DNA of 64,000 nucleotides from Fistulifera solaris (Eukaryota): contig AP026126.1 in the NCBI GenBank assembly GCA_030295235.1, positions 868,001-932,000 on the forward strand, given 5' to 3'. Under the pieces are notes generated by a model that made no database searches, was not told the origin of the DNA, and was given only the letters and a program-made list of their open reading frames with translations. The number at the start of each line of letters is the position of its first letter. Position 1 is the first letter of the stretch. Shown in pieces: positions 545 to 58,830 of the stretch. The position numbers and the translations under genes are program-made.

Positions 545-751
545 AAATCCACAAGGATTTGCAATCTCAGCAACCGTACAGTGCAAAGCGCATTGCAAAT
601 GTAGCTCACTAAAATTCTTACAGCCAAATAAACCCATTAGATGCTGAGCGAAACTATTTTGAGCATGGGTCATGCAAAAGCGCGTTAACGGGTCCGACGT
701 TGTTCTGACTCATGACTGGAAATTCAGTTTTGGATAAATACTAAGAACACT
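545..751 (-). repeat. Diverged copy of the ~240-bp dispersed element (reverse orientation to the 36.6-kb array)
   Basis: ATCCACAAGGA (547), GCGCATTGCAAATG (588) and TGACTCATGACTGGAAATTCAGTTTTGG...AACACT (706-751) match the reverse complement of the 36839-37078 unit in the same order and with similar spacing. Confidence 0.7.
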
Positions 752-858
752 CCAGAATGAGCTCCAAACTCCGCGGACTCCTTCTCCGGACCCGCTCCGG
801 ACTCCTAGTTTTGTAGTCTCGAGCTCTAAAGAGAGGGAATTGATTTATTTGAGGGCCA

Positions 859-1065
859 TTTTTAACCGGCAGTTCGCATTTCGTATTTTCGTTTTTCGTA
901 ACCTTATTTTCGAATTTCGCATTCGAATCCAAGGTTTAACAGGGAAAATGACAGACGATAACATCTGTATTTTTTACTTCTGCCCTGATTGGGCAAAAGC
1001 TAAAAACACGAAAATCCGAAAATGGGAAATACAATAAGGTTAAAAAAGTCTGGTTAACTTAAAAA
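859..1065. mobile_element. Degenerate inverted-repeat (MITE-like) relic with TTTCG sub-repeats
   Basis: Left arm TTCGCATTTCGTATTTTCGTTTTT / TAACCTTATT is complementary to right arm AAAAACACGAAAATCCGAAAATGGGAA / AATAAGGTTA. No TSD identified. Confidence 0.35.
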
Positions 1066-1219
1066 TACCTGTATCTACATTCTACATAGACTCACTCTTG
1101 TGGCGAAAGTTTACGTTCTGAAAAGATCTTTGCACCATCGCTCGCACGATGAATTGAAAAGACGAGAATCATCCCTCGTAAAAGCCACGTGAACATCTCT
1201 TTCATTTAATTATATCATT

Positions 1220-2153
1220 ATGTCCGCAAGTAAGCTCATCGTCGACAAGGCCCTTCGTGCCTCTATCAGCCTTGGCTCGTCCAAAATTCCCAGCGAACTG
1301 GCGAAATCGAGCGCTGCTTTCCTTTCCAGCGGATCAACGAAGGCTACTCTTCCCGACCTTCCTTACGATTACGATGCCCTAGAGCGTAAGTAGAATTTCA
1401 AGCAGACCAATAGTGGGGAACATTTGAAATCTCACGCTTTAAGTATCAATACAGCTGTGATTTCCTCGGAAACCATGACGCTTCACCACACCAAGCATCA
1501 TAATACATACGTTACCAACTTGAATGCTGGTATGGAAAAGCTCGATGCGGCCATCACAGCTGGAGACGTGTCGGGGATCATAACTTTACAAGGAGCGCTA
1601 AAGTTTAACGGCGGAGGTCATTTGAATCACACACGTAAGTGCTGAAAATCTTTTTCGAGAAAAGTGTCCGGCTTCTATCGCTCGTATATCTCACGTCTTC
1701 TTTTGCAGTTTTCTGGGAGAATCTCGCACCCACTGGTAAATCATCTGGACCCTCTGGTCATTTGGAAGCGTGTATTATCAACTGCTTTGGTAGTTTGGAT
1801 GCCATGAAGGCAGAATTGAGCGCGAAGAGTATCGCCATTCAGGGAAGCGGATGGGGGTGGCTCGGGTACAACACTGCCACCGGTGCGTAAACTTTGTGAA
1901 AGAGTTGTGGTGATGCTCCGAATCCGTTTTACTAACACTTTGCTTTGTATCAGGACGCATGGAAGTAGCAACCTGTGCCAATCAAGATCCATTGCAGGCG
2001 ACCACTGGTCTCGTTCCTTTGTTGGGCATTGATGTCTGGGAGCATGCATACTATGTCGATTACAGGAATGTGCGTCCTGATTACGTCAAAGCAGTTTGGG
2101 ACATTGTCAATTGGGATGTAGTGGCGGAACGCCTGGCTGCAGTGAAGAAGTAG
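1220..2153 (+). CDS. SOD2: Manganese superoxide dismutase, probably mitochondrial; 4 exons (1220-1385, 1455-1634, 1709-1882, 1954-2153)
   Basis: [39 protein letters not shown] and DVWEHAYY motifs. GT-AG introns restore the frame. N-terminal S/A/K/R-rich presequence. Confidence 0.96.
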
Positions 2154-2350
2154 GGAGAATTCTTAATCGAAAACTGTCCTTTATTTTAGTCCCTTCATCA
2201 TTCATTACATTACGTCGATCAGCAGTAGGCATTGAGAGATATTTGTACAGCATAAAATACAAGTTGAGCCTCTACTAGATTTATATTCAAGATCCTTCCC
2301 GTCCGTTATAGCACTGGCAACGAGGCTAATGGATGCCATTTCATTCAGAA

Positions 2351-56341: not shown

Positions 56342-56900
56342 GAAAACTTCCCCTTGGTTGCTCTGTAGCTCAAAATGTTCTTCTCAATCGCTTAAAGTCA
56401 CAAACGTATGAATATATCTTTTTACTAGCAATTGGCATTCAGTTTGCTAAACTCGAATGGCATCATGGCATCGCGCTCCGCCTCGGATTTTTGTTTGATG
56501 AGAAAAATATTGGCGTACGAAGTCTACCAGACATAATTCAAGACAGACAGTACATCTCGCTGTAGTCAGAAAAGATCCAACGGCACTCGTTCTATACAGA
56601 GTTGTGTAGGCAAGCACTCTTTTGGTGTCTTATCCAATGAGGGTCGACATCTTGTCCGATGACTTGACTGTAACCGGTAATCGACACGGACAGTCGGACA
56701 GACAGCTGTGTACTGATAGCGCCATGGGAATGGGACACGTCACCATGTTGAACATGAGAAAAACGAACTGCCGATGAAACGATGAAACTCCATAAAATTT
56801 TGGGACGACAAGACTCATGAACTTTGAGAAAAATGATACCATTTCTCTTCTTGTTGCGAGCTCAAACCGTCCTTACTGATCATATTCTTGTAACTCCAAA

Positions 56901-57770
56901 ATGAGAATTATCGGAGCATTGTTGACGATTGTACCTGTAGTACATGCATTTGTCCCTCTCATCGATGGCGGAACAGATATCCCAAAATTCTACAAGTCAT
57001 GGTTTGATGACCAAATCGTGAAACAAGCGTCTACAGCAGTAGAAAAAGCCATTGCGGCGGGAAATAAGAAAATCGAAGTAAACTTTCCAGCTGTTCCCAA
57101 CGTGGAAGAAGCCAAATTTGGAACCTCTTTGAACCAAAAATTCGGCACGACGGTCGTCGCCAGAGAACTCAAGATTGCGGGAGGATACACGCCCGGTTCG
57201 GACATTGCCCGAAATCTGATTGCTTACAGCAATGTTTACTGGGCAAAGAAAATAGCACCCGCCGTCGGCGGAGGCTTACTAGGTGGCCGTCCAGTGACGG
57301 TCGTGACACCGGAACAAGTGAACATGAAACAAATCCAGTCTCGTGGGGCTATGTCTCAGATTCTCTCATTGAAGATGAGTAAAGGTGTCGAAGTGAAACA
57401 AGGAGGAGCTCTAATAGCTATCAACCCTGGCGGTGAAGAAACTTGGGATCGCATTCAATCGGCATTTGGCAATGGGTCACCCATGGTCGTACTCAATAAC
57501 GCCTACTCGACAACCTACGGCTTGGGCAACAAACGAGGATACGAAGAAGCTTACTTTGTCAAACGGATATCCAAGGGCTGGATCTTCCGTTGTTTCCCTG
57601 GTCCTTGGAAGGCGTATTTGGAAAAACCCGATGGAAGTTGTGAGCTCTTGGAGACATACTCTTCGAAGCCGGAACTCAACGTCGTAGCAACACTTGTTCG
57701 TGATGAGTCATTTAAACGATATGCGATCAACAATGATCGATGGTTTCCGGGACAGGGTCAAAGACTCTAA
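56901..57770 (+). CDS. DUF1995-family (LPA3/adenylate-kinase C-terminal-like) plastid protein
   Basis: Signal VHA-F-VP; QA..AV..AI..G...IEV.FP, VVLN and GWIFR.FPGPW......G....L.....KP motifs. Confidence 0.75.
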   Translation: MRIIGALLTIVPVVHAFVPLIDGGTDIPKFYKSWFDDQIVKQASTAVEKAIAAGNKKIEVNFPAVPNVEEAKFGTSLNQKFGTTVVARELKIAGGYTPGSDIARNLIAYSNVYWAKKIAPAVGGGLLGGRPVTVVTPEQVNMKQIQSRGAMSQILSLKMSKGVEVKQGGALIAINPGGEETWDRIQSAFGNGSPMVVLNNAYSTTYGLGNKRGYEEAYFVKRISKGWIFRCFPGPWKAYLEKPDGSCELLETYSSKPELNVVATLVRDESFKRYAINNDRWFPGQGQRL

Positions 57771-57957
57771 ATACAGTATTGAAATAGGAGTAATGTCCCT
57801 TGCCGACGTTTGTCGGGCTTGCCTAGATTTACGTTGAATGACTTTGTAGTCGATCTAAACCTACAGTGTCTTTGAGTTAATTTGTTGTCTTATCTAGATT
57901 TCTCTCTTCCATGAAAAGACGAGTGAAGAATAATGAGCATCAAGCCTACTCGCATTT

Positions 57958-58409
57958 CTATCCGCTCTTGAACATTAGAATGGCTACCTGACCAATGTAG
58001 AAATAGATAAAATGCTTCGTCTCGTGCGTTACATAGCTGCCGAAGTTCCTTCCAACAATCACATGCCTAAAGAAGTTGAGAGGAATCATCAGAGAATGTC
58101 GATAAAATGGCAATAATTTGGGGAATAACCTGTAATTAAGGAACCAATGCGATCAGAGAGAAAGACATAGAAACTCACCATGTTGGACCGTGTTTCTTAT
58201 CGAATTCCTTCTTAATAGCACACGCCACGTCCTGCAAGAAATAAAATGAAAGTTAGAAGATGATATCAAAAGCGCATTTAGGCACGGCAACGCACCTTCT
58301 CAATGTTGTAATCGGAAAGAGCCTTCGATGCAACATCAACGGCATCTTGCTGCATCGCTTCCGTCATATCAGCATTCTTGATGACTGCTTTTCGTTGTTC
58401 GCCACTCAT
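57958..58409 (-). CDS. DYNLL: Dynein light chain LC8; 3 exons (missed by the ORF track)
   Basis: Spliced translation [91 protein letters not shown]. Introns ~58232-58295 and 58067-58178. Confidence 0.96.
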
Positions 58410-58540
58410 TTCAAACTTTGATGAATAGTTGACGGTAAAAAGAAAAGGATGGATTACAATAATCGATCAACACAAACGATGAACGATTATTGTTATAGTT
58501 TGTTGCGTTTTGATCGAACGGACACGTTTATCGCAATGTC

Positions 58541-58830
58541 TCATGCCTCATGACTCACGAAAAATCAAGTCGTGGTAAAATTGCGTCAACACATTGGATA
58601 TATAGTAAATACGGAATGCAATGATTTACTGCAAGATTTTCGACGTACATAAATGAAGCGTGCATTGGGAATGCTGCTGATGATAAGTTGAATCAACATA
58701 AAAACTATTTTAGTTTAACAAGTTAGCAGAAGGTACGAAGTTTCAACAGCAGTTTGGCTCGGTTAAAACCATTATCTATGATCCATGATTCATTACTCAT
58801 GACTGAATGCAGTCGTTGTGAAGATTTTGG
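58541..58830 (-). repeat. Diverged full-length copy of the ~240-bp element with the junction at both ends (reverse orientation)
   Basis: AGTCGTGG...GTCAACAC...ATATAGTAAATACGGAA, GCAAG..TTTCG, GCGTG.ATTG..AATGCT.CTGA, GCAGAA...GAAGTTT...GCTCGG and ACTCATGACTGAATGCAGTCGT all match the reverse complement of the 36.8-kb unit collinearly. Confidence 0.85.

What the first reader, a model, noticed from the sequence alone, without database searches (positions are those of the whole stretch)
545..58830. Dispersed ~240-bp non-coding element family with tandem, junction-spanning copies about every 10 kb
Seen in sequence: the 240-bp unit of the tandem array at 36590-37139 recurs in diverged form at 545-751 (rev), 17880-18175, 35621-35710, 49842-49925 (rev), 58541-58830 (rev) and possibly 12337-12420. 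Every copy is intergenic. Conserved blocks stay collinear; read on the reverse strand they are TGACTCATGACTG-loop-CAGTCGTGG, ACACT-N(6-8)-TATA, ATCCRCAAGG, GCRYATTGCAAATG and GCTCG. Copies begin and end at different points of the unit, and several run across the unit junction or carry it at both ends. I see no ORF, poly-A tail, long TIR, tRNA A/B boxes or TSD. Inference: this permuted, greater-than-unit pattern fits a non-autonomous element spread through a concatemeric or circular intermediate (Helitron/Helentron-like rolling circle, or retrozyme-like circular RNA). Alternatively it is a dispersed functional element (regulatory module or replication origin) with blockwise constraint. I do not recognise it as a described family, but I cannot search to confirm this.
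Basis: partly seen in the sequence, partly recalled or inferred. Interest (0 to 1): 0.8.

Follow-up and report, generated by a model that had tools for sequence, protein, structure and literature searches.

The report
Hairpin-tipped modular repeat family in diatom
A non-coding repeat with a ~220-base unit and a conserved hairpin end is scattered between the genes of this diatom, probably at thousands of places; it behaves like a small mobile element with internal tandem repeats, but the enzyme that moved it was not found.

Summary
The family is real: six window loci score against a model built without them (12337-12420 does not), and the hairpin motif has 745 exact genome-wide matches (control 0). 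The scan noted what looks like the same family three times on other DNA. Free permutation is only partly right. In two unbiased blocks 22 of 29 arrays start at the hairpin (random cuts 24-26%), so the usual copy is core-(body-core)n. One large subfamily keeps an ordered a-b-c core series followed by a separate end module. There is no target-duplication excess, poly-A tail, ribozyme, covariation or Rfam match. Only 5 of 18 sites are shared with the homoeologous chromosome, and shared cores diverge about like four-fold sites, which argues against host function. One young subfamily rides inside an unrelated MITE. Best reading (0.4): a non-autonomous DNA element with DINE-1/HINE-like layout, moved by a hairpin-reading (rolling-circle type) enzyme, then reshaped by local tandem expansion, deletion and hitch-hiking. 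No Helitron, Penelope or recombinase partner was found, so it is not filed as a HINE.

The parts
36590..37139 (-). Tandem array of 2.3 units (240-bp variant, young subfamily A); starts about 40 nt before a hairpin, ends inside the third hairpin after a 7-nt slip duplication
   Evidence: 86-91% identical to loci on C4 and C6; homoeologue has a different repeat array here
37037..37098 (-). Conserved core of one unit: 13-bp end motif, imperfect hairpin (9-bp arms, 5-nt loop), ACACT box and TATAGTAAATA box
58541..58823 (+). Old copy: core-body-hairpin, starts at the hairpin
   Evidence: 99.6 bits; homoeologue has an M-repeat array from the same point
17910..18187 (-). Old copy: body plus second core; a short inverted hairpin arm at its 5' end (about 18157-18187)
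   Evidence: 83.9 bits; not in the homoeologue
35622..35719 (-). Core plus start of body (unit positions about 213-85); its 5' flank is another small repeat also seen at L135 and L044
   Evidence: 41 bits
49839..49896 (+). Solo core; the only window copy shared with the homoeologous chromosome
587..751 (+). Eroded junction-spanning copy (unit second half plus hairpin and ACACT box); weak
   Evidence: E 0.004; E 6e-4
37374..37560 (+). Remnant of the M minisatellite (CCAGA-N-TCTGG palindromes) 5' of the array in element orientation; bounds approximate
   Evidence: (D11); same orientation in 10 of 11 arrays that have M upstream

Best explanation
A non-autonomous DNA element with internal tandem repeats. 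Shown: the master form is about 0.3-0.6 kb, begins about 5 nt before a 13-bp motif whose inverted copy lies 5 nt away (hairpin), carries one or two 220-bp units that each begin with that motif, and in one large subfamily ends in a distinct last core plus an end module. Shown: copies have no target duplication or tail, come and go between homoeologues, expand locally into homogeneous arrays (like the window's 2.3-mer), shrink to solo cores, and one subfamily was captured by a MITE. Inferred: the primary spread was DNA-level copying by a protein that reads the hairpin arms by sequence, most likely an HUH (Helentron/Helitron-type rolling-circle) enzyme that is now lost, rare or too diverged for the searches; the scattered ends of young copies are secondary (capture, deletion, repair).
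For: Starts at phase 201-20: 22 of 29 arrays in contiguous C5/C6 blocks and 60 of 106 in selected loci, against 35 of 134 and 29 of 119 in simulated random cuts. End module behind a unit in 23 of 30 loci fetched only for that motif; it follows core type c in 18 of 25 cases, and orders ab/bc/ac (7/12/4) outnumber ba/cb/ca (3/1/0). No TSD excess: 20 of 132 arrays with a 6-bp repeat, 17% in shuffled pairs. Arms conserved by sequence, 0 compensatory changes in 38 sequences (196 hairpins). The last core's arm matches the inverted 5' 13-mer at 10 of 13 in consensus, internal cores at 8 of 13 (one ancestral event, so not independent counts). DINE-1 has 13-bp subTIRs, an IR 3-22 bp away, central repeats, a 3' stem-loop and no target change (PMC4067079, passages). 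In the MITE, both ends of the inserted array fall in the same ~10 nt just before the hairpin, i.e. whole units. A Helitron-like 3' end (hairpins then CTAG-T) exists as a separate repeat and abuts the end module in about 8 loci.
Against: No Helitron_like_N (control silent) or PIF1 match in the genome. No excess of long inverted repeats between array ends (4 of 132, null 3%). The 3' stem-loop is weak (-1 kcal/mol) and T-richness after it is slight. No clean empty site with a TT target was found; the MITE insertion replaces several hundred bases. The window's own copies lack the end module. In young subfamily B the other end is the clustered one (9 of 17 at phase 77-104) and two loci share a 5' inversion, which looks more like retroposition. 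Helentrons are described as very limited outside opisthokonts (PMC4067079 passage).
Confidence: 0.4

Rival explanations
1. Dispersed euchromatic satellite with no enzyme of its own: short arrays move by gene conversion, extrachromosomal circles and microhomology repair, often into clusters of another repeat (M), and ride in other transposons; the fixed end is an inherited junction.
For: Young subfamilies have scattered ends; shared flanks show inherited junctions; M arrays lie upstream in one orientation 10 to 1 and replace the family at two window sites in the homoeologue; no partner enzyme found. Drosophila Rsp-like/1.688 clusters show one shared and one variable junction (PMC7403614, abstract and section 7 part 1).
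Against: First hairpins are preceded by many unrelated flanks with a sharp boundary about 5 nt before the motif, so the fixed end is not one inherited junction; the core is far better conserved than the body across the family although it is near neutral once inserted, which points to selection during copying; no large source array was seen (longest 11 units).
Confidence: 0.27
2. Retroposon copied from an RNA by the genome's RLE-type (CRE/R2-like) LINEs or a Penelope-like enzyme; the core is a promoter carried at the RNA's end, so greater-than-unit insertions stay active.
For: Subfamily B ends cluster at phase 77-104 around the commonest T4 run (15 of 38 units), about 23 nt after the TATA-like box, the spacing reported for the T. 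pseudonana U6 start (10.1101/062026, passages); a 5' inversion with twin-priming geometry in L076/L081; a unit joined directly to a LINE 3' end in L078 and a truncated LINE just behind units in L109; a 7-nt slip repeat at 15 of 103 first hairpins against 5 of 98 internal ones (p 0.03).
Against: The LINEs here leave poly-A tails (L119, L124) and a short TSD (L124); the repeats have neither. No Penelope RT among 26 RT matches: gypsy, telomerase and RLE LINE in the frames read. No hammerhead core (1 of 52 units has even the bare pattern); no covariation. Most old copies have the hairpin end fixed instead.
Confidence: 0.18
3. Host-functional module (promoter element, replication origin or protein-binding site) kept by selection.
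For: Strictly intergenic; in 6 orthologous pairs the core differs less than its flanks (61 of 381 against 150 of 608 sites); 1 of 23 in convergent gaps against 15% expected (not significant).
Against: 12 of 18 sites are in one homoeologue only, 5 shared, 1 unresolved; shared hairpins and boxes differ at 15% and 17%, four-fold sites at 19.4% (p 0.09, 0.19), and the pairs were found through their cores; by eye the three published diatom ARS motifs do not match the unit.
Confidence: 0.08
4. Crypton-like non-autonomous circle: the hairpin is an arm-spacer-arm recombination site and units integrate into existing cores.
For: 11-7-11 reading of the site fits the YR site geometry (PMC3212892 passages); mixed arrays ending in core c and solo cores are expected; earlier notes report Cryptons in this genome.
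Against: No Phage_integrase match in the genome (the noted Cryptons were not located, so their sites were not compared); no 4-6-bp terminal direct repeats in excess; arms match at only 7 of 9.
Confidence: 0.07

Closest known systems
DINE-1 / HINE non-autonomous Helentrons (PMC4067079, passages; oyster Cg_HINE, PMC7492417, passages)
   Same: No ORF; 13-bp end motif with a nearby inverted repeat; 140-240-bp internal tandem repeats; separate 3' module with a small stem-loop; no TSD; thousands of dispersed short arrays.
   Different: Here every internal repeat carries the end motif; the putative 3' subTIR matches only 10 of 13 and lies farther from the end; TT target not shown; no Helentron found; most copies lack the 3' module.
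Euchromatic satellite clusters Rsp-like / 1.688 of Drosophila (PMC7403614, abstract and section 7 part 1)
   Same: Short arrays between genes, fast turnover between orthologous sites, co-location with a second repeat, inherited junctions, higher-order units.
   Different: No large heterochromatic source array seen; sharply conserved hairpin core and many independent flanks at that end.
Non-LTR retrozymes and Penelope pseudo-LTRs (10.64898/2026.07.22.740005, part 1 of 5; PMC5680766, passages)
   Same: Tandem non-coding units of a few hundred bases, intergenic.
   Different: No hammerhead ribozyme, no covarying RNA structure, no Penelope RT found.
Replitrons (PMC10288648, parts 1-4 of 7)
   Same: HUH-type copy-paste elements with short terminal direct repeats and fuzzy ends; non-autonomous partners.
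   Different: Not detected in diatoms in that paper; no Rep tested here; no 6-bp terminal repeat.

Membership tests
HINE / DINE-1 | 5' subTIR with adjacent inverted repeat | tested here: met
   13-bp motif plus 9-bp inverted arm 5 nt away at the fixed end
HINE / DINE-1 | 3' subTIR 38-60 bp from the 3' end | tested here: inconclusive
   last arm matches 10 of 13 but lies more than 60 nt before the stem-loop; no general excess of end-to-end inverted repeats
HINE / DINE-1 | 3' stem-loop near a T-rich end | tested here: inconclusive
   conserved 4-bp stem in the end module, -1 kcal/mol; T fraction 0.36 in the next 25 nt against 0.28 farther out; absent from window copies
HINE / DINE-1 | No target-site duplication | tested here: met
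HINE / DINE-1 | Insertion into TT shown by empty sites | tested here: inconclusive
   homoeologous gaps are unalignable; MITE empty sites show a replacement
HINE / DINE-1 | Autonomous Helentron sharing the termini | tested here: not met
   no PF14214 or PF05970 match; weak negative, since the first control was silent and only 4 candidates were scored in the second
Canonical Helitron | 5' TC, 3' hairpin then CTRR, A-T target | tested here: not met
   no CTRR after the unit hairpin on either strand; the CTAG end belongs to the separate X repeat
Retrozyme | Hammerhead (or other self-cleaving) ribozyme in each unit | tested here: not met
   Rfam none; bare CTGANGA..GAAA in 1 of 52 units
Retrozyme | Abundant circular RNA | not testable with these tools
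   only poly-A-type assembled contigs were offered
SINE / LINE-dependent retroposon | TSD and A-rich or repeat tail; small-RNA head | tested here: not met
   only a weak 7-nt slip excess
TRIM / LTR miniature | TG..CA LTRs, PBS, PPT, 4-6-bp TSD | tested here: not met
   core starts TG and follows a purine-rich tract, but its other end is ragged and there is no TSD; PBS not tested against tRNAs
Crypton | 4-6-bp terminal direct repeats and a YR partner | tested here: inconclusive
   no TSD-like excess; partner not located
Described repeat in Dfam/Repbase | Sequence match | not testable with these tools
   neither library is on hand

The most novel reading that the evidence does not exclude
A self-promoting retro-satellite: each unit carries an external Pol III-type promoter (hairpin element, ACACT box, TATA) at its end, drives a unit-length ~220-nt RNA through the next unit to a T4 terminator, and is copied back as greater-than-unit insertions; or, in the DNA version, a minicircle moved by a hairpin-reading enzyme of a class not yet described in diatoms. 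Either would be a new transposition route for several thousand loci.
Probability: 0.12. Interest if true: 0.75.

Novelty: new variant of a known kind. Interest (0 to 1): 0.4.

Why it matters
At one locus per 13-15 kb (an extrapolated 3,500-4,000 loci) this is a major, unclassified part of the intergenic DNA of an allopolyploid diatom, and it helps explain why gaps between genes cannot be aligned between subgenomes that differ by only 19% at silent sites. If a rolling-circle partner is found it extends DINE-1-type elements to diatoms; if the promoter model holds it is a new kind of retroposon. As it stands it is a well-described repeat with an open mechanism.

Tried and rejected
Rfam: nothing at gathering score in the window, chance-level hits only on the array and none on 5 loci; 300 kb more gave one tRNA and no snRNA gene to compare promoters with. 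Folding of the array: z -1.3 and -0.8; RNAalifold no consensus. RNA: no holder is on record as RNA; three runs that look like poly-A contigs cover genes but not the bins holding the 17.9-kb copy or the array, which proves nothing about short or circular RNA; the DNA-like run showed no empty allele. Other organisms: no exact match in metagenome or viral contigs, none in phages; these collections hold few diatom genomes. Partner searches: Helitron_like_N, PIF1, Phage_integrase none; 24 DDE_Tnp_4 matches, none near the 61 end-module sites by coordinates; GIY-YIG cluster on C21 is host-like and has no unit. LINE as targeting partner: L124's LINE sits in an M array, not in this family. The first heptamer count was contaminated by wrong-strand matches and was redone. 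The within/between-array identity summary pooled separate arrays of the long blocks and was not used. Literature: searches returned no description of this family; supplements were not read, and bioRxiv supplements are closed.
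Full report
Setting. The window is gene-dense eukaryotic DNA (chlorophyll a/b-binding protein, PPR, WD40, phage-type RNA polymerase) at G000:C6:868001-932000 in a 51.7-Mb assembly. A second copy of the region lies on C5 at 86-92% identity, with 19.4% difference at 7,997 four-fold sites, so the genome has two subgenomes. Earlier notes call it a diatom.

Observation. The array is as described. A profile from other loci, without window units or their close relatives, finds six loci in the window and stays under 8 bits on 11 x 64 kb of controls. The 545-751 copy is weak but real as 587-751; 12337-12420 is not supported. Genome-wide, the exact pattern TCATGACTG-N3-7-CAGTCGTG has 745 matches against 0 for the reversed pattern. 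Contiguous blocks give 18 clusters in 264 kb and 15 in 200 kb. All 23 arrays that could be placed between conserved genes are intergenic.

Anatomy. The unit is about 220 bp. Read hairpin-first (minus strand at the array) it opens with a 60-bp core: TGAYTCATGACTG, a 5-nt loop, the inverted arm CAGTCGTGG, an ACACT box and a TATAGTAAATA box; the body is 50-70% conserved. The arms are kept by sequence, not by pairing: 0 two-sided changes in 38 sequences and balanced one-sided changes in 196 hairpins. No Rfam family, hammerhead core, tRNA or consensus fold was found.

Ends. On a tripled model, starts fall at phase 201-20 in 22 of 29 arrays of the unbiased blocks and 60 of 106 arrays of selected loci (those were picked through the core, so are biased), against 24-26% for simulated random cuts; ends fall at 21-100 in 21 of 29 and 74 of 106 against 44-45%. 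The usual copy is therefore core-(body-core)n, with many solo cores. Direct repeats at the borders are no commoner than in shuffled pairs (20 of 132 at 6 bp or more, null 17%; none at 8 bp), nor are end-to-end inverted repeats.

A master form. The motif CAGACGGAAATTCTG occurs 61 times exactly; in 23 of the 30 loci fetched it lies just behind a unit on the same strand, mostly about 80 nt after a hairpin. Cores fall into types by the spacer after the hairpin; the end module follows type c in 18 of 25 cases and the order a-b-c dominates. Bodies of these arrays sit in one star-like clade, as after a burst from one master. About 8 of them abut a separate repeat, X, whose opposite strand ends like a Helitron. 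A palindromic minisatellite, M, lies upstream in one orientation in 10 of 11 cases. The window copies lack the end module.

Young copies. Part of this is secondary. Five B loci (L015, L071, L077, L065/67, L069) carry arms of a 1.15-kb MITE with ~30-bp inverted ends; three MITE copies without the unit (L198-200) give the empty state, and a 5-kb relative with broken reading frames exists. There both ends of the inserted array fall in the same ~10 nt before the hairpin and several hundred bases of the MITE are replaced; unit number then varied from 1 to 6. Against my main reading, 9 of 17 B loci at 85% identity or more end at phase 77-104 (one duplicate and three more diverged loci dropped; several share ancestry), two share a 5' inversion, and one is fused to a LINE 3' end.

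Function test. Of 18 sites in the stretch covered on both homoeologues, 5 are shared (4 clear, 1 probable), 12 one-sided and 1 lies in a rearrangement. At 36590 and 58545 the homoeologue has an M array instead. In 6 orthologous pairs the hairpin differs at 25 of 167 sites and the boxes at 36 of 214, not significantly below the four-fold rate, though below the flanks. Selection seems to act on copying, not on inserted copies (inference).

Partner. No Helitron Rep, PIF1 helicase or phage integrase match; RT matches read as gypsy, telomerase and RLE LINEs. These searches score only first-look candidates and are weak negatives.

Comparison. The layout resembles DINE-1/HINE (PMC4067079 and PMC7492417, passages) and the dynamics resemble Drosophila euchromatic satellites (PMC7403614, abstract and section 7 part 1). 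It works like a HINE with moderate probability but is not filed as one: no partner, no proven 3' subTIR or TT target. It is not a retrozyme by the definition in 10.64898/2026.07.22.740005 (part 1 read). Replitrons were not detected in diatoms (PMC10288648, parts 1-4). CryptonS ends are 5-6-bp direct repeats (PMC3212892, passages). PMC5680766 and PMC12477816 (passages) add nothing specific. Ten literature searches found no description of the family; Dfam and Repbase could not be searched. Earlier notes e1-7529157, e1-7527745 and e1-7528228 appear to describe the same family on other DNA; only their short summaries were visible.

Verdict. Real, abundant, unclassified; polarised and modular rather than freely permuted; mechanism open with a DNA rolling-circle type favoured at 0.4. 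Interest 0.4.

Noticed in passing
L109:3340-3430 (G000:C14, LINE 3' UTR); also L078, L119, L138: Two of the three centromere/ARS consensus motifs published for Fistulifera solaris (10.1101/2021.11.10.468027) match by eye the 3' UTR of the RLE-type LINE found here, so those motifs may be LINE tails.
   Followed up: partly
L198:235-1393, L199, L200, L205; L201:156-5263: A 1.15-kb MITE family with ~30-bp inverted ends starting GGCA, and a 5-kb relative with broken frames and no Pfam match; 15 end matches genome-wide.
   Followed up: partly
L124:2800-6885 (G000:C1): A 4-kb RLE LINE with poly-A tail inserted inside an M minisatellite array with a short TSD; a 98% identical copy at L123 lies near another M array.
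   Followed up: partly
G000:C5:960236-962593 and 983396-984893: M-repeat arrays with a higher-order period occupy the sites where the window has this family; M motifs are 67 in the C5 block against 9 in the C6 block.
   Followed up: partly
L076:988-1094, G000:C5:1047744-1047841: Repeat X: GC-rich hairpins ending CTAG-T on one strand, like a Helitron 3' end, although no Helitron protein was found.
   Followed up: partly
window 35910-36261: Direct repeat of about 185-189 bp period (85% identity) between two copies of the family.
   Followed up: no
window about 17655-17700 and 19420-19445: Degenerate hairpin-like words: the first is shared with the homoeologue, the second lies where the homoeologue has a unit; neither scores against the model.
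   Followed up: partly
window 2646-3833 and 4998-6131: Old tandem gene duplication (66% identity); one frame matches MFS_1.
   Followed up: no
L107, L108 (G000:C31, C30): Two homoeologous telomerase reverse transcriptase-like frames of over 900 aa.
   Followed up: no
L208 (G000:C21:900000-905400): Three tandem GIY-YIG genes with zinc-knuckle repeats; one continues into a CCCH finger and WD40-like region.
   Followed up: no
L082:1380-1860: A fragment of the unit flanked by a 55-bp-plus inverted duplication of the M array.
   Followed up: partly
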